DNA from: a virus
IMG/VR virus record: IMGVR_UViG_3300031228_000015
Span: 1 to 42,312 of that record
Reading direction: 5' to 3' (one strand)
DNA: 42,312 nucleotides
Shown here: one piece after another, positions 1 to 42,312 of the stretch
Numbering within the stretch: position 1 is the first letter of the stretch
How the letters are laid out: each line of letters starts with the position of its first letter
Made by a program: the position numbers and the translations under genes
Notes under the pieces: generated by a model
Databases searched by the model: none
What the model saw: only the letters and a program-made list of their open reading frames with translations
What the model was told of the DNA's origin: nothing

Positions 1-276
1 GCCGCCGCCGCCACCTACGCCAACGCCGCCGCCGCCGCCGCCACCTACGCCAACGCCGCCGCCGCCGCCGCCACCTACGCCAACGCCGCCGCCGCCGCCA
101 CCTACGCCAACGCCGCCGCCGCCGCCGCCACCTACGCCAACGCCGCCGACGACGCCGCCACCTACGCCAACGCCGCCGCCGCCGCCGCCTACGCCAACGC
201 CGCCGCCGCCGCCGCCGACGACGACGCCGCCGCCAACGCCACCTACGCCAACGCCGCCGCCGCCAACGCCGCCGCC
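1..276. repeat. Coding tandem repeat of 30-/27-bp units [(GCC)5-6 ACC TAC GCC AAC]; the same repeat occurs at 42190..42312
   Basis: Read directly. The unit gccgccgccgccacctacgccaacgccgcc is exact three times (1-90). It is followed by 27-bp and degenerate units with GAC substitutions. Nt 1-94 are identical to nt 42219-42312. Confidence 0.95.
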
Positions 277-1791: not shown

Positions 1792-1962
1792 ATGAAACAA
1801 CTCACCCCGCGCGATCTTCAGTGTCTGCGCGATCGGCGCGACCGCAGGCACCGCACCGCGTCGCTGCTCAAATGGTGTGTCCCGTTCGAACCACCACCGC
1901 CCGCGTCGCTGCTCACCGTCAGGATCGGCGGCCGCGCGCGGGTGCCCATCCATCGCCTGTGA
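1792..1962 (+). CDS. Small basic hypothetical protein (56 aa)
   Basis: Not in the ORF track (<60 aa). ATG at 1792 lies 8 nt after GAAGGAGG (1776-1783). Translation: MKQLTPRDLQCLRDRRDRRHRTASLLKWCVPFEPPPPASLLTVRIGGRARVPIHRL. TGA at 1960-1962. Confidence 0.45.
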   Translation: MKQLTPRDLQCLRDRRDRRHRTASLLKWCVPFEPPPPASLLTVRIGGRARVPIHRL

Positions 1963-1987
1963 CGCGCGCTTTTCGAAGGGACCGCCC

Positions 1988-2227
1988 ATGAGCCATCACG
2001 ACAGGGTAATGATCACATTCTTCGCCCTCGCCCTCGCCGCCTGTATCGCCGCCATGGGCTGGGCGCAGCTCGCCGTGCGCCACCGCCGCCTCAAACGCGC
2101 CCTCCACGCCCTGCGCAAGGATCGCGATGGCTTGCGCAGGGCACTGTGGGAGAATCGCGGCGTCGAGGATGACGATATGGGAGGGGCCATCGATGCGGCA
2201 TTATGTAGCAAACGCACCAATGCGTAG
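1988..2227 (+). CDS. Small membrane protein; its last 10 codons read into the left end of the transposon
   Basis: ATG at 1988 after GAAGGGA. TM segment ITFFALALAACIAAMGWAQLAV. The ORF crosses the IS boundary at 2196. After conceptual excision it would end ...GGAIDG-TGA. Confidence 0.55.
   Translation: MSHHDRVMITFFALALAACIAAMGWAQLAVRHRRLKRALHALRKDRDGLRRALWENRGVEDDDMGGAIDAALCSKRTNA
2188..2220. repeat. Left TSD (2188-2195, CATCGATG) plus left terminal IR (2196-2220)
   Basis: 2186-2220 is the exact reverse complement of 5245-5279 (35 bp). The outer part is palindromic, so it also reads as a direct repeat. Confidence 0.85.
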
Positions 2228-2288
2228 ATGGTTATCCATCTGCGCGGTGGCGGGTGTCATCGTTTGTGGGGCAAGTGAGGCGCGGGCA

Positions 2289-3254
2289 CTAGGTGGCATA
2301 CCCGGGATAGTCGCTATTGGCCCGCAACACGAGCTTGTCACCAAAGGGCGGGCTATCGAGGTCTATCAGGCCATCATCGCGCCTTGTGTCGATCACGTCG
2401 AACAGGTGAGCGGTAAACCTGAGGCGCTTGCTCAAAGCCGTCTTGTATTTGGCAACCGTGTAGAAGCCAATTTTGACAACACTGGGCGGCGTTTCCCCGC
2501 TATTCTCACAGGAGCTTCGCCGTTCCAGCTCATCGCCGGGGAACAGTATTGCATCCTGCCACGCGATCTTGGCAGACCGGAAGTGCTTAATCGTTTCGTC
2601 CAAGTGTGCCCTTGGGTTCTCTCCGAACGCCATCGACGCAAAAAAGCTGACATCCAAGGCAGGCGTCTTTCCGATGTTCTTGACGACGTAGCGAATATGA
2701 AAATGCGGTTGCTCGTTTACCATCCTGAAGCCGATGACGTCCGTTATCTTGACGGTGATCCATGCTCGAAGTTGGGAGTCCACCCCGGCACGTGCGATCT
2801 TGTTGGCTTCCTGGCCAGCCTCGGCGGCAGCAATAGCAGCCTGAGTGGCGTTCTTGGCTTCATCGGCCATCGTCTTGGCGTGGTCGGCAGCCTTAGCGGT
2901 CGCCTCAAGCGTTTTCTTGACGATAGCGGCCACGTAGATGCTCACGCCCGTAGTGACGACAGCCGCAAGCGCCATGACCAACGCCCAAAAAGCCATTTCT
3001 TCTTGGGCCTCAAGGTCGCGCTGGGAGTGGGTTTGGCCGTTCTCGGTTACTGGATCGCGAAGCGCGCCCTCGATTTTGACAGCGGCTTCGGTGATGGCTT
3101 CTCTAACGGCAACCGACTCCGCTTCTGGATCAGCTACCTCGGATTGCTGGCCAGTGGCTTGATCGGCGCTTGCGGCTTTGTCTTGGCCGTAAGCAGCTTG
3201 GCATAGCGCTAATCCTGTAAATGCAGCGAAGACACCCCAATTGCGCTTAAACAT
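2289..3254 (-). CDS. Secreted/membrane-anchored protein of unknown function (transposon cargo)
   Basis: 321 aa. Signal-peptide-like N-terminus MFKRNWGVFAAFTGLALCQAAYG, then an acidic region and a TM helix AFWALVMALAAVVTTGVSIYVAAIV. An Ala-rich helix and a beta-rich C-terminal domain (YVVKNIGKTPALDV) follow. A same-phase antisense ORF (2127..3206) was judged spurious. Confidence 0.6.
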   Translation of the reverse strand: MFKRNWGVFAAFTGLALCQAAYGQDKAASADQATGQQSEVADPEAESVAVREAITEAAVKIEGALRDPVTENGQTHSQRDLEAQEEMAFWALVMALAAVVTTGVSIYVAAIVKKTLEATAKAADHAKTMADEAKNATQAAIAAAEAGQEANKIARAGVDSQLRAWITVKITDVIGFRMVNEQPHFHIRYVVKNIGKTPALDVSFFASMAFGENPRAHLDETIKHFRSAKIAWQDAILFPGDELERRSSCENSGETPPSVVKIGFYTVAKYKTALSKRLRFTAHLFDVIDTRRDDGLIDLDSPPFGDKLVLRANSDYPGYAT

Positions 3255-3439
3255 TGGACAAGAAACACCGCCGTGAATTTTCCCCGGCTGATCTTGTTCC
3301 TGATATTCGGCTCAGAGTCCATTACCCCAATGTCAGCGAGCTTTCCCACCAGTTCGGAGTAGGTGACGTTCCGGCGCTTCAGTTCCGCCTTCAGCATCCC
3401 CTTTACCCGATCTTCCCATTCCTTCTCCGCTACCGGCAT
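3209..3439 (-). CDS. DUF6471-like small HTH protein (putative regulator; transposon cargo)
   Basis: 76 aa. KGMLKAELKRRNVTYSELVGKLADIGVMDSEPNIRNKISRGKFTAVFLVQCLSAIG matches my recollection of the DUF6471 family. It overlaps the start of 2289..3254 by 46 nt. Confidence 0.65.
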   Translation of the reverse strand: MPVAEKEWEDRVKGMLKAELKRRNVTYSELVGKLADIGVMDSEPNIRNKISRGKFTAVFLVQCLSAIGVSSLHLQD

Positions 3440-3543
3440 CGTCTCGCTCCATGATGAGAAATATCATCATACGCGATGCATTTGCCCTTTACAACAGTGC
3501 ATAATGTCATTATCTAGAGTGCATAAGCACTGGAAACGATGAC

Positions 3544-4503
3544 ATGGCACAGCACTTTCTCCTCTCCGCCAAGGCTCGCACCCTCTCCCTCAAGGCGGTT
3601 TTCCGCATGGGCGAGGATGCCGCCTATCAGGCTTTCTGTGAGATGCGCTGGCCCGAAACCGAGGGCGAAGCGGTGTGCCCGCGTTGCGGCTGCACCGAGC
3701 ATTACAATCTTTTAACCCGCCGCAAATTCAAGTGCGTAGCCTGTCACCACCAGTTCAGCGTGACGAGTGGAACGATCTTTGCTTCGCGCAAGCTGTCGTT
3801 CACCGATCTGCTGGCGGCGATTGCGATTTTCGTGAACGGGGCGAAGGGGATTTCCGCGCTACAGGCGAGCCGCGATCTGGACGTGCAGTACAAGACCGCT
3901 TTCGTGCTGTTCCATAAGCTGCGCGAGGCGATGGCCCGCGAACTGGCTGACGCCAAGCTCAACGGCACGGTGGAAATCGATGGGGCCTATTTCGGCGGCT
4001 ACGTGAAGCCGGAGAACCGCAAGGAAGATCGCAAGGACCGCCGCCTTGTCGCGAACCGTTCGGGCAAGCGCCAGTGCGTCGTCATCATGCGCGAACGCAA
4101 GGGTCGCTCGCTTCCCTTCGTTGTCGCCAACGAGGGCGATGCCGTTCCCTATGTCCGCGACCACGTTGGCACCCTCGCCACGGTCTGCGCGGACGAAGGC
4201 AGCGGTTGGGATGCGCTCCATGCCGGTTGGGATACGCGCCGGGTCAACCACTCGGTTGCGTTCATGGACGAAGGCGTGTGCACCAATCAGGCGGAGTCGT
4301 ATTTCAGCCGCCTTCGCCGGATGGAAGTCGGAACGCACCACCACATCGCCGGGCCGTATCTCTACAGCTACGCTGGCGAGGCTGCTTGGCGCGAGGATAA
4401 TCGCCGCGTGGACAACGGTTCACAGGCGATGACGCTGACGGCGGCTGCGATGGCAGCGCGGGTTAGCCGGAATTGGAAAGCGTATTGGCAGCGCGCGGTC
4501 TAA
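3544..4503 (+). CDS. IS1595-family DDE transposase
   Basis: 319 aa. N-terminal MAQHFLLSAKARTLSL and zinc-ribbon CPRCGC...CVACHHQFSVTSGTIF are typical of IS1595-family transposases. The DDE-type body contains VEIDGAYFGG...NQAESYFSRLRR. Confidence 0.9.
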   Translation: MAQHFLLSAKARTLSLKAVFRMGEDAAYQAFCEMRWPETEGEAVCPRCGCTEHYNLLTRRKFKCVACHHQFSVTSGTIFASRKLSFTDLLAAIAIFVNGAKGISALQASRDLDVQYKTAFVLFHKLREAMARELADAKLNGTVEIDGAYFGGYVKPENRKEDRKDRRLVANRSGKRQCVVIMRERKGRSLPFVVANEGDAVPYVRDHVGTLATVCADEGSGWDALHAGWDTRRVNHSVAFMDEGVCTNQAESYFSRLRRMEVGTHHHIAGPYLYSYAGEAAWREDNRRVDNGSQAMTLTAAAMAARVSRNWKAYWQRAV

Positions 4504-4566
4504 GTCATTGAAATCGACTCACTCTTAATGCTTGAAATTCTTGAGTTTTTCACTATATCGCATCCC

Positions 4567-5076
4567 ATGGATAGGTCTGTCGCCATCGCAAACGAGTTTC
4601 TCCGGAAACCCGGCGGTGAGTCGCTTACGCAGATGCAGCTCCAAAAGCTGGTCTATATCGCGCATGGATGGAAGCTTGGCTTGTTGGGCCAGCCTCTGAC
4701 GACCGATGAACCGCAGGCGTGGGCCTATGGGCCCGTTTATCCCGACCTTTATGACCATACGAAATTCTTCGGGCGGGGGGCGATAGGCCGGGAAATTACT
4801 CCCGACGATGACGAAGCGGTTCGTTTCTTCACTGACGCTCGCAGGAGAAATGTGCGCCCTTACCGTGCCGAACTCGACGCCAACGAGCGTCAGATTATCG
4901 ATCAGGTTTGGAGGCGCTACGGAAAACTAAGCGGCGCGCGACTGTCCACGTTGACGCACCAACCTAACACACCCTGGTCGGACACTTACGACGGCGCACG
5001 CAATCGCGTGATCCCGCAGGACGAAATCCGAAACCACTACGTCGAACTGGCTGGCCGTGTCCGAGCGGGAGCTTGA
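4567..5076 (+). CDS. Panacea (DUF4065/SocA-like) antitoxin-domain protein with no adjacent co-directional toxin gene
   Basis: Motifs LTQMQLQKLVYIAHGWKLGLLGQPL, AWAYGPVYPDLY and LSTLTHQPNTPW fit the Panacea domain pattern. Start taken at ATG 4567 (MDRSVAIANEFL); an upstream ATG at 4528 is also possible. Confidence 0.75.
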   Translation: MDRSVAIANEFLRKPGGESLTQMQLQKLVYIAHGWKLGLLGQPLTTDEPQAWAYGPVYPDLYDHTKFFGRGAIGREITPDDDEAVRFFTDARRRNVRPYRAELDANERQIIDQVWRRYGKLSGARLSTLTHQPNTPWSDTYDGARNRVIPQDEIRNHYVELAGRVRAGA

Positions 5077-5218
5077 TCGCGTTGTCGAGCGTTTCGACAA
5101 CGCGGGCCATCTGTGCCAGCGCCTCTTGTGTGCGGAGCATTTCACCAGCGAGGGCGGCGCGGCGCTTCACCAAGCCATCGGTTAGGTAGTCTGTCATCGC
5201 CTGCGATACATAGCGCAT
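4964..5218 (-). pseudogene. Possible 5' remnant of a small coiled-coil protein gene
   Basis: The first ~50 aa (MTDYLTDGLVKRRAALAGEMLRTQEALAQMARVVETLDNAIKL) look protein-like. The last ~35 aa are Arg/Gly/Cys-rich and run antisense through the 3' end of 4567..5076. Confidence 0.25.
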
Positions 5219-5244
5219 AAATGACGATGACGACTATCCGCACG

Positions 5245-5277
5245 TTGGTGCGTTTGCTACATAATGCCGCATCGATG
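5245..5277. repeat. Right terminal IR (5245-5269) plus right TSD (5270-5277, CATCGATG)
   Basis: Reverse complement of 2188-2220, read directly. Confidence 0.85.
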
Positions 5278-5475
5278 GCTGATGAATCTGATAAGAAATT
5301 GGCCGCAGCTACGACACCCCATGACGAAAAACTTATTGAAACGCTTTGCGACGCTTTGATGATCGCGCTGCCTTACGTCGAAATGGCTGAGCACGATGAT
5401 ATCTACAAGCCCGGCGCCGTCCGGGCCGTTGTCAGAAAAATGCGCCACGCGCTCACGCGCGCACAATACCTCTAA
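5275..5475 (+). CDS. Hypothetical protein (66 aa), last gene of the plus-strand arm
   Basis: The ATG at 5275-5277 is formed by the last 3 nt of the right TSD. Translation: MADESDKKLAAATTPHDEKLIETLCDALMIALPYVEMAEHDD... An in-frame upstream ATG at 5221 lies inside the IS end. The 3' end overlaps the convergent gene 5472..5768 by 4 nt. Confidence 0.5.
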   Translation: MADESDKKLAAATTPHDEKLIETLCDALMIALPYVEMAEHDDIYKPGAVRAVVRKMRHALTRAQYL

Positions 5476-5768
5476 TCCCCCGAACACCCACCAAGCACCG
5501 CCAGTGCCTCGCGCAAGGCCCCGCGTAGCTCGATCGCCTTGGCCGCCAGCAGGTCCGCCGCCTGCACAGCAGAAACCCCGCCCTGCCACCCGCGGCCGCG
5601 CTCGCTTTCGATCGTCGCAGGTTCCGCCGGCACCTGATCCGGGCTCACACACGCCACCGCCACCGGCCGATCCACCTCCACCGTGCGCACCTCGATCCCC
5701 GGTCGCGGGCTTGCGCAGGCGGCCAGCGACCATAGTGTCGCCCACAACAGAATCATCCTGGCGCGCAT
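5472..5768 (-). CDS. Lipoprotein, o-spanin candidate
   Basis: ATG at 5768 lies 6 nt after GGAGGG. Signal peptide with lipobox MRARMILLWATLWSLAAC. The mature part is Pro/Val-rich (EVRTVEVDRPVAVACVSPDQVPAEP) with a C-terminal Cys. It is the last gene of the minus-strand lysis arm. Confidence 0.55.
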   Translation of the reverse strand: MRARMILLWATLWSLAACASPRPGIEVRTVEVDRPVAVACVSPDQVPAEPATIESERGRGWQGGVSAVQAADLLAAKAIELRGALREALAVLGGCSGD

Positions 5769-5916
5769 CACAAGCCCTCCGAAGTAAACAAACCCCTAAT
5801 GAAAATGCGACGAACCGTTGTCGATTGTGCTTGCCGTATACGCACATTGCGCGCATACGGGCCTTGTCAGCATGGAGTTGACCGGGCGCCTCGCCGATCA
5901 GGGGCGGAGACAAAGA

Positions 5917-6138
5917 ATGGAAAAGAAGTTCACCACTTTTCGCAGCCGCTTCGATCCGGACGTAACTTGCTTCCAGAGCAACGACTACGTGGGCCTGCTG
6001 CGAGCGATCTGCTGCAACTCGGTCACCGGCTATGTGATCGATGGGCGAAAGACGAAGGGTGAAGACATCATCAAGGTTCCATCCCATGCCGCCGATGCTG
6101 TAGCCGACCATCTCGGCCGCATGGGATGGACTCGCTAA
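5917..6138 (+). CDS. Hypothetical 73-aa protein (upstream gene of an opposite-strand two-gene moron)
   Basis: ATG at 5917 after GGAGA. Lower-GC segment. No family recognised; a HicA-like resemblance at the C-terminus is too weak to call. Confidence 0.45.
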   Translation: MEKKFTTFRSRFDPDVTCFQSNDYVGLLRAICCNSVTGYVIDGRKTKGEDIIKVPSHAADAVADHLGRMGWTR

Positions 6139-6389
6139 ATGTATTGCCGATGGGAGTTCCGCGAACTGTGACCAACCATCCGAACCGATCGCGCGGGGGG
6201 CAATCCCTCCCGCGCAATCCTTCGCCAGCGGAAGTGAAGGCCGCGCGGGGGGACGCCGGGCTAACCCAATCCGCCGCCGCCGCGCTAGTTCACACGTCGC
6301 TACGCAACTGGCAGCAATGGGAGGGCGGCGATCGGAAGATGCATCCGGCATTTTGGGACCTGTTCCGCCTGAAAACCGCGCAACCCTAA
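6126..6389 (+). CDS. XRE/YiaG-like HTH DNA-binding protein
   Basis: TNHPNRSRGG...PSPAEVKAARGDAGLTQSAAAALVHTSLRNWQQWEGGDRKMHPAFWDLFRLK matches a widespread small HTH family (WQQWE-G-R-M motif). The true start may be GTG at 6168 (MTNHPNRS...). Confidence 0.7.
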   Translation: MDSLNVLPMGVPRTVTNHPNRSRGGQSLPRNPSPAEVKAARGDAGLTQSAAAALVHTSLRNWQQWEGGDRKMHPAFWDLFRLKTAQP

Positions 6390-6829
6390 AGCCCCTCCAC
6401 CATCAGCAAGGCATCGCTCACCGGGCACGCCGCCGCATCGCCTGGCACGCTTCGCGCCGCGCTTTCCCGCAACCCCGCGATCGTGGCGGCCGATGCCTGG
6501 TTCGCCTCGCGCGCACGGGCAAGCTCGACTTCGGCCGCGGCACGCCGTCGCACGCCTTCCGCCGCCAGAGCGCGCACGCGGGCGCTCTGTTCGTCCAGCG
6601 CCGCCAGCGCGCGCTCCAGCGACGCGGCCGTCACTTCGTGCGCCGCCAACGCGATCGCGGTTTTCATCTGAGCATCAAGCAGGTCCTCCCGTGCCCAGGC
6701 CACACGCAGCATCTGCCATCCGGCAAACGCCACCAGCGCGGCGATCAGGATCATGCGCCAGTGCCGCACAACGCCGGCCACAGCCGCCTTCGCTGTGGGC
6801 GCGGCGATCAGGCTAAGCCCCGGTATCAT
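6386..6829 (-). CDS. i-spanin (Rz-like) candidate
   Basis: 147 aa. N-terminal TM (ILIAALVAFAGWQML) followed by a long Ala/Arg/Glu coiled-coil region. Lies directly downstream of the holin-like and endolysin genes. Confidence 0.55.
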   Translation of the reverse strand: MIPGLSLIAAPTAKAAVAGVVRHWRMILIAALVAFAGWQMLRVAWAREDLLDAQMKTAIALAAHEVTAASLERALAALDEQSARVRALAAEGVRRRAAAEVELARAREANQASAATIAGLRESAARSVPGDAAACPVSDALLMVEGL

Positions 6830-7148
6830 CGGCCTGCTCCCGGTGAATGTTGGTATCGATTTCCACGAATTCGCCCAGGCGCGCCTTCATCGCGTTCGCC
6901 TGCGTCGCGATCAGCACCACGCCCATCACCATGCCGATGCGCAGCCATTCGCTGTAAAGGATCACCTCGCGCAGTAGGGCCGCAGACGCCTGCCGGGGCG
7001 GCCACCACAGCAGCGCGATCACGGTGAAGCCTTCCACCGCCACGCCCAGCAGCATCCCCCAGCACATCAGCGCGCGGATCTGCCGGGCGTTCATGTTCAG
7101 CGCATAGCGCACCGATCGGGCGATCCACCCGAATGCCCAGGCGAACAT
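6813..7148 (-). CDS. Holin-like membrane protein
   Basis: Internal ATG at 7148 (MFAWAFGWIARSV...). Contains 2-3 hydrophobic helices (LMCWGMLLGVAVEGFTVIALLWW, IGMVMGVVLIATQ). Position is immediately after the endolysin gene. Confidence 0.5.
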   Translation of the reverse strand: MFAWAFGWIARSVRYALNMNARQIRALMCWGMLLGVAVEGFTVIALLWWPPRQASAALLREVILYSEWLRIGMVMGVVLIATQANAMKARLGEFVEIDTNIHREQADDTGA

Positions 7149-7204
7149 CGCCGCCACGGCGCCAGCGGCGCGGCGCGGGCGCGAAGGTGGGGAATCCCCG
7201 CCGG

Positions 7205-7795
7205 TCACAGCAACAGCGCCTTCATGTGGCCCAGCCACGCCTTGCGGTCGGCCAGCCCGTTCAGCCCGCCGTTGATCTTGCGCGTCACGCCCAGCACATC
7301 GTCCCGATCCGCCAGGGGGGAGATGCCGCGCGATTGCCAGTAATCGCACGCCACCCACAACCCGATCGAAGGCGCCGCCGCCAGTTCGGGATGCCGTTCC
7401 AGATCCAGCCCCAGCCGCCGCCCCACCGTCCGGTAATTATCGCGGCCGGTCAGCTGGATCGGGCCACGCCCCTTGTACCGCCGCCCGTCGCCCACCTGAT
7501 CGTTGCCCAGGTCCTCGCGCCCCTCATAGGCCGCGCCGCTGGCCAGTTCCTCCATCCACTTGAAGCCGCCCGATTCGTGCGCCAGCTGCGCCATGAAATG
7601 CGCCAGGCGCAGCGGCGAATCGAGCAGGCCATAGCCGTGCAACCGCACGTTGCCCGCCAGCGCCAGCTCCGCCGCGATTTCCGGCTTCGCGCCCGCCGCC
7701 GCGAACAGCGCATGCAGCGTGTTCCTGCCGATCTGCCCGTCCACCGTCACCGCCAGGCGCAACTGCATCCGTTCGATATCGTCCCGATCCATCAT
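7205..7795 (-). CDS. Endolysin, glycoside hydrolase family 19 (chitinase-like)
   Basis: AHFMAQLAHESGGF...YKGRGPIQLTGRDNY...LWVACDYW are GH19 hallmark motifs. Confidence 0.85.
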   Translation of the reverse strand: MMDRDDIERMQLRLAVTVDGQIGRNTLHALFAAAGAKPEIAAELALAGNVRLHGYGLLDSPLRLAHFMAQLAHESGGFKWMEELASGAAYEGREDLGNDQVGDGRRYKGRGPIQLTGRDNYRTVGRRLGLDLERHPELAAAPSIGLWVACDYWQSRGISPLADRDDVLGVTRKINGGLNGLADRKAWLGHMKALLL

Positions 7796-41801: not shown

Positions 41802-42312
41802 ATGTTCGATTTTTCGCAGATCACCGAAGTCCGCCTCGCCGCCGGGGCGCACGAATCGGCCGCCTCCGGTATGTGCTTCATGGAAATGGTCGCCTGGTTC
41901 AACGGTGAACAGCACAGCGATCGTCCGCAATGCGCATGCCCCGTGCTCGGCCGTTTCGGGATCAAGCTCAACGATGCTATGCCCGGCGATCTTCGTGACC
42001 GGCTGCTCAAGCCCGTCGTCCCCCTGATATCCGGCACGCGCGGATCGCTCGATGACCAGAAGCGCCGCGCGGAATTCCTGGTACTGTGGGCGGTCAACAG
42101 GGTACTGCCCGTGGTCCTGCGCATGCGCGGGCAGGAGGCCCGCGCGGTGGCTTGCGAAAACGCTCGCACCCTCGCGGAAGCACGCCAGGCCGCCGCCGCC
42201 ACCTACGCCAACGCCGCCGCCGCCGCCGCCACCTACGCCAACGCCGCCGCCGCCGCCGCCACCTACGCCAACGCCGCCGCCGCCGCCGCCACCTACGCCA
42301 ACGCCGCCGCCG
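41802..42312 (+). CDS. 5' part of the Ala-rich tandem-repeat protein gene (open at the window end; continues at 1..453)
   Basis: ATG at 41802 after AAGGAAAGGA. The N-terminal domain MFDFSQITEVRLAAGAHESAASGMCFMEMVAWFNGEQHSDRPQCACPVLGRF...LNDAMPGDLRDRLL runs into (AAAATYANAA)n with no stop. The frame agrees with frame 1 at the window start under 34-, 64- or 94-nt overlap. Confidence 0.7.
   Translation, partial: MFDFSQITEVRLAAGAHESAASGMCFMEMVAWFNGEQHSDRPQCACPVLGRFGIKLNDAMPGDLRDRLLKPVVPLISGTRGSLDDQKRRAEFLVLWAVNRVLPVVLRMRGQEARAVACENARTLAEARQAAAATYANAAAAAATYANAAAAAATYANAAAAAATYANAAA
42190..42312. repeat. Coding 30-bp tandem repeat (four TYAN units) at the window end
   Basis: Read directly. 42219-42312 is identical to 1-94. 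Confidence 0.95.

What the first reader, a model, noticed from the sequence alone, without database searches (positions are those of the whole stretch)
4504..5220. Orphan Panacea (PanA-type) antitoxin-domain gene without a recognisable toxin partner
4567..5076 carries Panacea/DUF4065-like motifs (LTQMQLQKLVYIAHGW, AWAYGPVYPDLY, LTHQPNTPW). Described PanA antitoxins sit next to, and co-directional with, their toxin gene. Here the upstream neighbour is the transposase stop. Downstream there is only a convergent 84-codon ORF (4964..5218). Its first ~50 aa look like a real coiled coil, and its tail is antisense to the Panacea gene. Three readings are possible: a phage- or transposon-borne antitoxin that neutralises a host toxin (counter-defence), a non-canonical partner, or a decayed TA locus.
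Basis: partly seen in the sequence, partly recalled or inferred. Interest (0 to 1): 0.65.

Follow-up and report, generated by a model that had tools for sequence, protein, structure and literature searches.

The report
Toxin-less PanA antitoxin on a phage-borne transposon
This is a genuine, intact Panacea-type antitoxin gene whose membrane-toxin partner was removed by a ~1.2-kb deletion inside a cargo-carrying IS1595-family transposon that sits in a phage genome, so it is a decayed toxin-antitoxin pair, not a new kind of system.

Summary
Window 4567..5076 encodes a 169-aa standalone Panacea (PF13274) protein. It lies directly after an IS1595-family transposase gene and has no toxin gene beside it. 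Relatives explain why. In 177 of 221 related loci PanA is followed, with overlap, by a conserved ~134-aa gene for a coiled-coil protein with two transmembrane helices (a PanT-like membrane toxin). The closest relatives (L231 82%, L232 78%, L235 73% identical) all have it. L235 shows the window's gene order with the toxin; L232 shows PanA-PanT-43aa-p144. The window has lost about 1.2 kb: panT, a 43-codon ORF and the 3' two-thirds of a convergent 144-aa gene. The block is cargo of a 3,074-bp transposon (2196..5269) with 25-bp perfect inverted repeats and an 8-bp target duplication, inserted between two genes of a 42-kb siphovirus-like genome. PanA keeps its conserved leader and all family-invariant residues and gives a confident model. 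It could still act in trans (anti-addiction or counter-defence), but nothing here shows that. The origin is ordinary; the transposon context is mildly interesting.

The parts
2188..2195 (.). Left copy of the 8-bp target-site duplication, CATCGATG
   Evidence: It is identical to 5270-5277 and directly abuts the inverted repeat. An 8-bp duplication is typical of the IS1595 family (PMC8101967).
2196..2220 (+). Left terminal inverted repeat (IRL), CGGCATTATGTAGCAAACGCACCAA
   Evidence: It matches the reverse complement of 5245-5269 at 25 of 25 positions. The same core is found at the ends of related elements in L047, L081, L011, L152, L125 and L133 and in 14 viral contigs.
2289..3254 (-). Transposon backbone or cargo gene for a 321-aa membrane protein of unknown function ('TM321')
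   Evidence: Minus-strand homologues sit at the same position in L081 (250 aa), L235 (175-aa partial) and L246 (311 aa, E 1.9e-12). No Pfam, NCBIfam or PADLOC hit. L246 carries it without PanA.
3209..3439 (-). DUF6471 gene (76 aa), divergent from the transposase gene
   Evidence: PF20075, E 1e-30. The divergent DUF6471/tnp pair recurs in L133, L152, L235, L241, L245, L246, L248 and L250.
3544..4503 (+). IS1595-family transposase (319 aa), apparently intact
   Evidence: PF12762 at 1-153 of 153 profile positions, E 6e-37, plus the PF12760 zinc ribbon. Same length as in L235. It is 81% identical to the transposase of L248.
4504..4566 (+). Conserved panA leader with promoter-like TTGAAA (4532-4537) and CTATAT (4553-4558)
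   Evidence: The block is conserved in L081, L011, L029 and L084, starting exactly at the transposase stop codon. The promoter reading is inference. The consensus scanner did not flag it.
4567..5076 (+). panA: standalone Panacea-domain antitoxin (169 aa), intact
   Evidence: PF13274, E 2.5e-23. There are 349 homologues. It retains all 32 invariant and 15 near-invariant family residues. AF2 model: pLDDT 95.3, pTM 0.91. The fold matches viral Panacea-like proteins.
5057..5185 (+). Relic of the panT start (GTG at 5057, overlapping the panA end), now a 42-codon chimeric ORF that reads antisense into the p144 stump
   Evidence: The GTG and the overlap geometry are as in L231, L232 and L235, where a 133-134-aa panT follows.
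5077..5078 (.). Deletion junction. About 1.2 kb is missing relative to L232: panT, a 43-codon ORF and p144 codons ~41-144
   Evidence: Homology to the panA end and panT start stops here, and homology to p144 codons 1-40 starts here. The sequence AAGC(T) is shared by both parents.
5078..5197 (-). 5' stump (40 codons) of the 144-aa 'p144' backbone gene. The mechanical ORF 4964..5218 runs on as antisense of panA
   Evidence: It is 70-75% identical to P0241 and P0242. It is homologous to the full-length genes in L232 (144 aa), L081 (148 aa), L047 (143 aa) and L133 (150 aa).
5245..5269 (-). Right terminal inverted repeat (IRR)
   Evidence: It is the reverse complement of 2196-2220, 25 of 25 positions.
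5270..5277 (.). Right copy of the target-site duplication, CATCGATG
   Evidence: Removing 2196..5277 restores an overlapping stop/start (ATGGCTGA) between phage gene 1877.. and the gene starting at 5275.

Best explanation
Window 4567..5076 is the surviving antitoxin half of a PanA-PanT toxin-antitoxin pair. In this PanA subfamily the antitoxin gene is followed, overlapping by 4-20 nt, by a ~134-aa gene. Its product has a conserved N-terminal segment, a coiled coil and two C-terminal transmembrane helices, the same general type as the experimentally validated membrane-depolarising PanT toxins.

The pair travels as cargo in the variable slot of an IS1595-family transposon. The backbone order is IR, p144, cargo slot, tnp, DUF6471, membrane protein, IR. 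One copy inserted between two genes of this siphovirus-like genome and made an 8-bp duplication.

An internal deletion of about 1.2 kb then removed panT, a small ORF and most of the convergent p144 gene. It joined 1-2 nt past the panA stop codon to about p144 codon 40, at a 4-5-nt microhomology. That left panA with its own leader, and it created the misleading 84-codon convergent ORF.

Shown: domain identity, the family's partner, the deletion, the transposon ends and duplication, and the phage context.

Inferred: panA is still expressed and can still bind PanT-type toxins through the Panacea core. Without a cis toxin it is either a neutral relic or a trans-acting neutraliser.
For: Panacea domain.

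Partner survey: 70 of 80 genome loci, and 177 of 221 loci overall, have the family partner directly downstream. Ten more have a different TM ORF there.

Partner anatomy.

Closest relatives keep panT: L231 (82% identical PanA), L232 (78%), L235 (73%), L236 and L084. L235 has the gene order membrane protein, DUF6471, tnp, PanA, PanT, collinear with window 3252-5039 at 75% nt identity. L232 has PanA, PanT, 43aa, p144(-), with window 5138-5197 matching the p144 5' end.

Junction. No PanT-like ORF anywhere in the window.

Transposon ends: 25 of 25 IRs and the 8-bp duplication CATCGATG. An independent element in L047 has its own co-varying IRs and its own 8-bp duplication AACTTATG. The IS1595 family makes 8-bp duplications.

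Backbone without PanA occurs in viral contigs L246, L248 and L250.

Phage context: terminase, portal, major head protein, tape measure, endolysin and primase.

PanA intact: all invariant residues retained; pLDDT 95.3; no branch lengthening relative to the paired sister L231; pN 0.157 against pS 0.81 versus L081.
Against: No expression or binding data exist. The PanT family has no Pfam or NCBIfam model and only 'hypothetical' names, so its toxicity is inferred from architecture and from the PanAT literature (PMC8832971, PMC10440598), not tested.

The deletion spares the panA stop codon by 1-2 nt, and a second phage-borne copy (L081) lost panT independently. Both facts could hint at selection for a solo antitoxin rather than neutral decay.

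The junction rests on one metagenomic contig, and the reads could not be inspected.
Confidence: 0.85

Rival explanations
1. The solo PanA is kept by selection as a trans-acting antitoxin. It would neutralise PanT toxins encoded elsewhere: on the host chromosome, on other copies of this transposon family, or in PanAT abortive-infection modules. That would protect the phage or its lysogen (counter-defence or anti-addiction). This is compatible with the deletion origin, but it claims a present function.
For: panA keeps its conserved leader, start, stop and every family-invariant residue, and it gives a confident model. The deletion ends 1-2 nt after the stop codon. A second phage-borne copy (L081-L083, found in three samples) lost panT by a different breakpoint yet keeps an intact panA. 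The cognate PanT family is common in the likely host range, Sphingomonadales and other Alphaproteobacteria.
Against: Only two orphan cases are known. Losing the toxin first is the only viable order of TA decay, so intact orphan antitoxins are expected as transients. The perfect IRs and intact duplication suggest a young insertion, so there may have been too little time for decay. Most of the purifying-selection signal accrued while the genes were paired. Most virus-borne relatives still carry a partner. The host genome is not available.
Confidence: 0.25
2. PanA has a non-canonical partner inside the element: the convergent 84-codon ORF (4964..5218), the 42-codon chimera (5057..5185) or the 321-aa membrane protein (2289..3254).
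For: These genes are physically close. The 321-aa protein has a TM segment and a coiled-coil-like stretch, loosely like PanT. In L081 its homologue lies divergent to and next to panA.
Against: ORF 4964..5218 is a truncated stump (40 of ~144 codons) of a backbone gene, plus antisense read-through. The p144 gene and the membrane-protein gene occur in PanA-less copies of the transposon: L246 has both, and L248 and L247 have p144. So they do not depend on PanA. Neither is co-directional with or overlapping panA, unlike the family's real partner. There are no PADLOC or Pfam toxin hits.
Confidence: 0.04
3. The apparent deletion is an assembly artefact (a chimeric join in a metagenomic contig), and the real element carries panT.
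For: This is a single contig. Both contig ends lie in a tandem repeat, which shows that the assembler met repeat problems elsewhere.
Against: The junction sits at a short microhomology typical of illegitimate recombination. An analogous internal deletion ending in the p144 5' region exists in the independent contig L245. The flanking IRs and duplication are coherent.
Confidence: 0.03

Closest known systems
PanA-PanT (Panacea) type II toxin-antitoxin systems with membrane-targeting PanT (E. coli STEC O31, Bartonella apis, Helicobacter sp.; Kurata et al. 2022, PMC8832971; Ernits et al. 2023, PMC10440598)
   Same: It is a standalone Panacea-domain antitoxin. In relatives the order is antitoxin first, with an overlapping bicistron. 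The partner is a small protein with a charged or coiled-coil N-terminal part and C-terminal TM helices. It occurs frequently on mobile elements and prophages.
   Different: The toxin gene is absent here. The partner family of this clade has no Pfam or NCBIfam model, and I could not link it by sequence to the validated T3, T12 or Helicobacter toxins. Toxicity and neutralisation are untested.
SocA-SocB of Caulobacter (type VI TA; NCBIfam NF047745)
   Same: It shares the Panacea/DUF4065 domain and an alphaproteobacterial setting.
   Different: It scores 80.1 bits against an equivalog cut-off of 190. There is no SocB-like partner in the window or in relatives. The partner in relatives is a membrane protein, not a DnaN-binding toxin.
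IS1595-family elements with passenger genes (Siguier, Gagnevin & Chandler 2009, cited in PMC12561309 and PMC8101967; the ISNwi1 and ISNha5 subgroup names are from my own recollection of ISfinder)
   Same: It has a DDE_Tnp_IS1595 plus zinc-ribbon transposase, short terminal IRs, an 8-bp target duplication and extra non-transposase genes between the IRs.
   Different: The IR begins CGGCATTATG rather than the GG-type ends quoted for IS1016-group members. The cargo includes a PanAT module in a slot that holds other genes in sister elements. It was not compared with ISfinder entries, because no tool allowed that.
Toxin-antitoxin pairs carried inside Tn3-family transposons (Lima-Mendez et al. 2020, PMC7157771)
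   Same: A TA module rides inside a transposon next to the transposition genes.
   Different: The transposon family is different, the antitoxin is of the Panacea type, and this copy has lost the toxin.
Orphan or solo antitoxins acting in trans (the anti-addiction idea; phage T4 Dmd against RnlA/LsoA). These examples are from my own knowledge and were not checked in the library
   Same: An antitoxin gene without a cis toxin on a mobile element or phage.
   Different: No evidence of trans activity here. The origin by deletion of a cognate toxin is directly traceable.

Membership tests
PanA (Panacea-domain antitoxin, PF13274) | Panacea/DUF4065 domain above Pfam's gathering threshold | tested here: met
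   83.6 bits against a 25.7 cut-off, E 2.5e-23, covering 112 of 113 profile positions. Also phrog_1281, E 6e-39.
PanAT two-gene TA locus (criteria of Kurata et al. 2022: partner within 100 nt, architecture conserved across species) | Adjacent conserved partner (PanT) gene | tested here: not met
   There is no PanT-like ORF in the window. The feature is met in relatives (177 of 221 loci) and in the closest ones, L231, L232 and L235.
PanAT two-gene TA locus | The toxin arrests growth and PanA neutralises it by direct binding | not testable with these tools
   This needs co-expression and pull-down assays. It is inferred only from PMC8832971 and PMC10440598.
SocA antitoxin (NCBIfam NF047745 equivalog) | Score above the equivalog cut-off, plus a SocB partner | tested here: not met
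   80.1 bits against a cut-off of 190. There is no SocB-like neighbour.
IS1595-family transposable element | Transposase with a DDE_Tnp_IS1595 catalytic domain and an N-terminal zinc ribbon | tested here: met
   PF12762, E 6e-37, full length; PF12760, E 5e-14.
IS1595-family transposable element | Terminal inverted repeats flanked by an 8-bp target-site duplication | tested here: met
   The IRs match at 25 of 25 positions (2196-2220 and 5245-5269). The duplication CATCGATG lies at 2188-2195 and 5270-5277. A second element in L047 has the duplication AACTTATG. The family rule is from PMC8101967.
IS1595-family transposable element | Assignment to a named ISfinder subgroup with passenger genes | not tested
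Known anti-phage defence systems (PADLOC-DB) | A match to a defence-system protein model | tested here: not met
   No PADLOC hit for PanA, the 84-codon ORF or the 321-aa protein. There are only chance-level hits for tnp and DUF6471.

The most novel reading that the evidence does not exclude
Phage-borne copies of this IS1595-family cargo transposon repeatedly shed the membrane toxin but keep PanA. The solo antitoxin would then disarm PanT-based abortive-infection or addiction modules of the same widespread alphaproteobacterial family, working as a transposon-delivered anti-toxin 'vaccine' for phage or lysogen. The variable slot between p144 and tnp would be a general exchange site for TA or defence cargo.
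Probability: 0.2. Interest if true: 0.6.

Novelty: new member of a known kind. Interest (0 to 1): 0.3.

Why it matters
This settles the finding. The orphan status is real, but it comes from a traceable deletion of a conventional PanT-type membrane toxin, not from a new pairing rule.

It also supplies a clean natural series: intact (L235, L232), toxin-deleted (window) and independently toxin-deleted (L081). That series can be used to test whether solo Panacea antitoxins act in trans.

The side result is an IS1595-family transposon with a conserved backbone (p144, tnp, DUF6471, membrane protein) and a swappable cargo slot. The slot can carry PanAT in either orientation, and the element inserts into phage genomes. 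This is a plausible route by which TA modules, and their orphaned halves, move between phages and hosts.

Tried and rejected
Searches that found nothing useful:
- blastn (distant mode) of 3000-6500 against 50,697 GenBank phages: no match.
- PADLOC: nothing meaningful.
- PDB by sequence and by fold: no significant match, so no solved Panacea relative was found. BFVD gave only unnamed or Panacea-annotated viral proteins.
- Rfam (E up to 1) on 1800-5800 and tRNA scan: nothing.
- Profile search with the PanT family: 372 hits, all 'hypothetical' with no Pfam domain. No hit could be tied to the validated B. apis or E. coli PanT.
- Search with the 40-aa p144 stump: only two short proteins. The contig of one of them was uninformative.

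Ideas dropped:
- The 35-bp perfect repeat was first read as an invertible-segment site, or as the promoter/operator of the p144 gene, because the core lies upstream of every p144 gene. I rejected this in favour of transposon termini once the 8-bp duplications were seen in two independent elements. The extra 10 bp of apparent repeat in the window is the palindromic duplication CATCGATG plus two chance bases.
- Strand of the 2127-3254 region: GC3 and pairwise BLAST could not decide between the + (359 aa) and - (321 aa) ORFs. I chose the minus strand because L081, L235 and L246 share the motif RDL.AQE..A.WA-TM-QRPW on that strand.
- tblastx of the window against L081 was mostly noise.
- dN/dS could not be turned into evidence for selection on the orphan state. 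dS is saturated, and the two orphans are not sister taxa.

Full report
**1. Checking the observation**

Window 4528..5076 contains a full-length SocA_Panacea domain (PF13274, E 2.5e-23, 83.6 bits against a 25.7 cut-off). A search of 5.8 billion proteins gave 349 homologues of about 165-175 aa. All align from the Met at 4567, so the gene is 4567..5076 (169 aa).

- The upstream gene 3544..4503 is an IS1595-family transposase with a DDE domain and a zinc ribbon.
- Further upstream, and divergent, is a DUF6471 gene (3439..3209).
- Downstream, the 84-codon convergent ORF 4964..5218 overlaps the panA 3' end.
- PADLOC recognises none of these as defence proteins.
- Rfam and tRNA scans of the region are empty.

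**2. What the family normally looks like**

I fetched 80 loci from species-representative genomes, 80 from metagenomes and 66 from viral contigs, then clustered the flanking ORFs. One neighbour stands out. It is a co-directional ORF of about 130-150 aa whose start overlaps the panA stop (median offset -4 nt). It is present in 70 of the first 80 loci.

With a profile HMM of this partner, 177 of 221 loci that have at least 450 nt of downstream sequence carry it. Ten more carry a different small TM ORF in the same position.

The partner has three parts:
- a conserved N-terminal segment (IDPSVIGNAPV);
- a coiled-coil stretch;
- two hydrophobic helices (KVFWFVV.YC..VG... and IIAGSTAVSVIGLIGMVISGLFG).

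It has no Pfam or NCBIfam model, and every source calls it 'hypothetical'. In architecture it resembles the membrane-depolarising PanT toxins validated by Kurata et al. Ernits et al. showed that standalone Panacea binds the N-terminal region and the helix preceding the TM segment of such toxins (PMC8832971, PMC10440598). That this family is toxic is an inference.

**3. The partner is missing here, and the deletion can be traced**

Neither tblastn with 70 partner proteins nor the HMM finds a partner anywhere in the 42-kb window. The closest relatives all have it.

| Locus | PanA identity to window | Gene order |
|---|---|---|
| L231 | 82% | PanA, PanT (133 aa) |
| L232 | 78% | tnp 3' end, PanA, PanT (134 aa), 43-aa ORF, convergent 144-aa gene ('p144') |
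| L235 | 73% | membrane protein(-), DUF6471(-), tnp(+), PanA(+), PanT(+) |

- L235 has the window's own gene order, collinear with window 3252-5039 at 75% nt identity.
- Window 5138-5197 matches the 5' end of the L232 p144 gene.
- On the p144 coding strand, the window reads MTDYLTDGLVKRRAALAGEMLRTQEALAQMARVVETLDNA and then continues into the reverse complement of the panA end.

So the window lacks about 1.2 kb relative to L232: all of panT beyond its first few codons, the 43-codon ORF, and p144 codons ~41-144. The join lies 1-2 nt after the panA stop codon, at a 4-5-nt microhomology (AAGC[T]).

The panT GTG start (5057) survives. It now opens a 42-codon chimeric ORF.

**4. The block is cargo of a transposon inserted in a phage genome**

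A sequence first seen as a 30-bp exact match to L081 proved to be a pair of inverted repeats. Positions 2196-2220 match the reverse complement of 5245-5269 at 25 of 25 positions. Each repeat is abutted by the same 8 bp, CATCGATG (2188-2195 and 5270-5277). Because this duplication is a palindrome, the repeat appears to be 35 bp long.

Several results support the reading as transposon ends:
- Removing 2196..5277 restores a typical overlapping stop/start (ATGGCTGA) between two phage genes.
- An independent element in an Acetobacteraceae genome (L047) has its own co-varying pair of IRs (GTATTATGTAGCAAGCACACCTAGCGCA) and its own 8-bp duplication, AACTTATG.
- IS1595-family elements characteristically make 8-bp duplications (PMC8101967).
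- The IR core occurs in 14 viral contigs.

These viral contigs show a conserved backbone: IR, p144, variable slot, tnp, DUF6471, (membrane protein), IR. The slot holds other genes and no PanA in L246, L248 and L250. In L047 and L133 the slot holds PanA-PanT in the opposite orientation.

The window itself is a complete-looking siphovirus-type genome with terminase, portal, major head protein, tape measure, tail protein, endolysin, primase and methyltransferase. Both contig ends fall in the same 27/30-nt tandem repeat.

**5. Candidate alternative partners**

The p144 gene and the 321-aa membrane-protein gene (2289..3254, minus strand) are backbone genes. They occur in PanA-less copies of the element: L246 has both, and L248 and L247 have p144. 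They are not co-directional with panA, and neither matches any toxin or defence model. I regard the 'non-canonical partner' reading as unlikely.

**6. Is the orphan functional?**

panA looks undamaged:
- It keeps the 63-nt leader that is conserved in L081, L011, L029 and L084 from the transposase stop codon onward. The leader contains TTGAAA and CTATAT motifs placed for a near-leaderless mRNA. That placement is inference, and the consensus scanner did not flag the site.
- It retains all 32 invariant and 15 near-invariant family residues.
- Its AF2 model is very confident (pLDDT 95.3, pTM 0.91).
- The fold matches viral Panacea-like proteins (TM up to 0.77), but no solved structure.
- Its branch is no longer than that of its paired sister L231.

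A second phage-borne copy (L081-L083, 78% identical, seen in three samples) is also toxin-less. It retains about 17 panT codons followed by an unrelated 61-codon ORF. It also lies outside the window+L231+L232 group in a neighbour-joining tree. The two toxin losses therefore look independent.

Non-synonymous divergence between the two orphans is low (pN 0.157) and synonymous sites are saturated (pS 0.81). Most of that history was probably spent in the paired state, so it does not prove selection on the solo gene.

Losing the toxin first is the only tolerated order of TA decay. The perfect IRs and intact duplication also suggest a young insertion. An intact orphan is therefore expected even without selection.

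**7. Comparison with known systems, and verdict**

- The gene is a member of the Panacea (PanA) antitoxin family by domain.
- It is not a SocA equivalog (80 bits against a cut-off of 190).
- The locus fails the two-gene PanAT criterion because the toxin has been deleted.
- About half of all Panacea proteins are not in recognisable TA loci anyway.
- TA modules inside transposons are known for the Tn3 family (PMC7157771), and IS1595-family elements with passenger genes were described by Siguier et al. 2009 (cited).

The finding is thus a real but ordinary decayed TA pair. It has a tidy evolutionary explanation and a moderately interesting carrier. The counter-defence or anti-addiction idea remains open and can be tested with the sequences identified here.

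Noticed in passing
window 2188-5277: A 3,074-bp IS1595-family transposon with 25-bp perfect IRs and the 8-bp duplication CATCGATG is inserted exactly at the stop/start overlap of two phage genes. Sister elements share the backbone (p144, tnp, DUF6471, membrane protein) but carry different genes in the slot between p144 and the tnp 3' end.
   Followed up: partly
L047 3166-7288; L133 109-2999: In these elements the PanA-PanT pair sits in the same slot but in the opposite orientation relative to tnp (convergent with tnp, co-directional with p143/p150). This suggests that the pair is exchanged as a cassette.
   Followed up: partly
L245 2958-4639: A 1.7-kb copy of the transposon has an internal deletion running from tnp codon ~71 to p143 codon ~59. 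This is a second case, besides the window, of a deletion ending in the 5' third of the p144 gene. It may reflect a hotspot or a cis requirement for IR-proximal sequence.
   Followed up: no
L081 6505-6799: In the other orphan copy, ~17 codons of panT remain. They are followed by an unrelated 61-codon ORF (MAQGKTPTIRKNVTFSQATIDYLEDL...) that has no family hit and overlaps the 3' end of the intact 148-aa p144 gene.
   Followed up: partly
window 5078-5197 (stump); full length in L232 1545-1979, L081 6780-7226, L047 3256-3687: The p144 family (143-150 aa) is always the first gene inside one IR. Its only family hit is a weak HARE-HTH match (E 0.005). It may be a DNA-binding accessory or regulator of the transposon; its function is unknown.
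   Followed up: partly
window 1-264 and 42189-42312: Both contig ends lie in the same 27/30-nt tandem repeat (GCCGCCGCCGCCACCTACGCCAACGCC...). The 42.3-kb contig is probably circular or circularly permuted, with the assembly broken inside the array.
   Followed up: partly
window 2127-3254: Long ORFs on both strands (359 aa on +, 321 aa on -) are both partly conserved in L081. The public gene call for L081 uses the plus strand, but homologues in L235 and L246 support the minus strand.
   Followed up: partly
window 5472-7795: A lysis region lies next to the insertion: the endolysin (7205..7795, phrog_181, E 1e-50) and a small ORF 5472..5771 with a lipoprotein-like signal (LAAC) that looks like an o-spanin. 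L081 carries its copy of the transposon in the equivalent place beside its own lysis genes, with non-homologous left flanks.
   Followed up: no
window 4532-4567: The conserved TTGAAA and CTATAT motifs end about 8 nt before the panA ATG, and no Shine-Dalgarno sequence is visible. This suggests a leaderless or near-leaderless panA mRNA.
   Followed up: no
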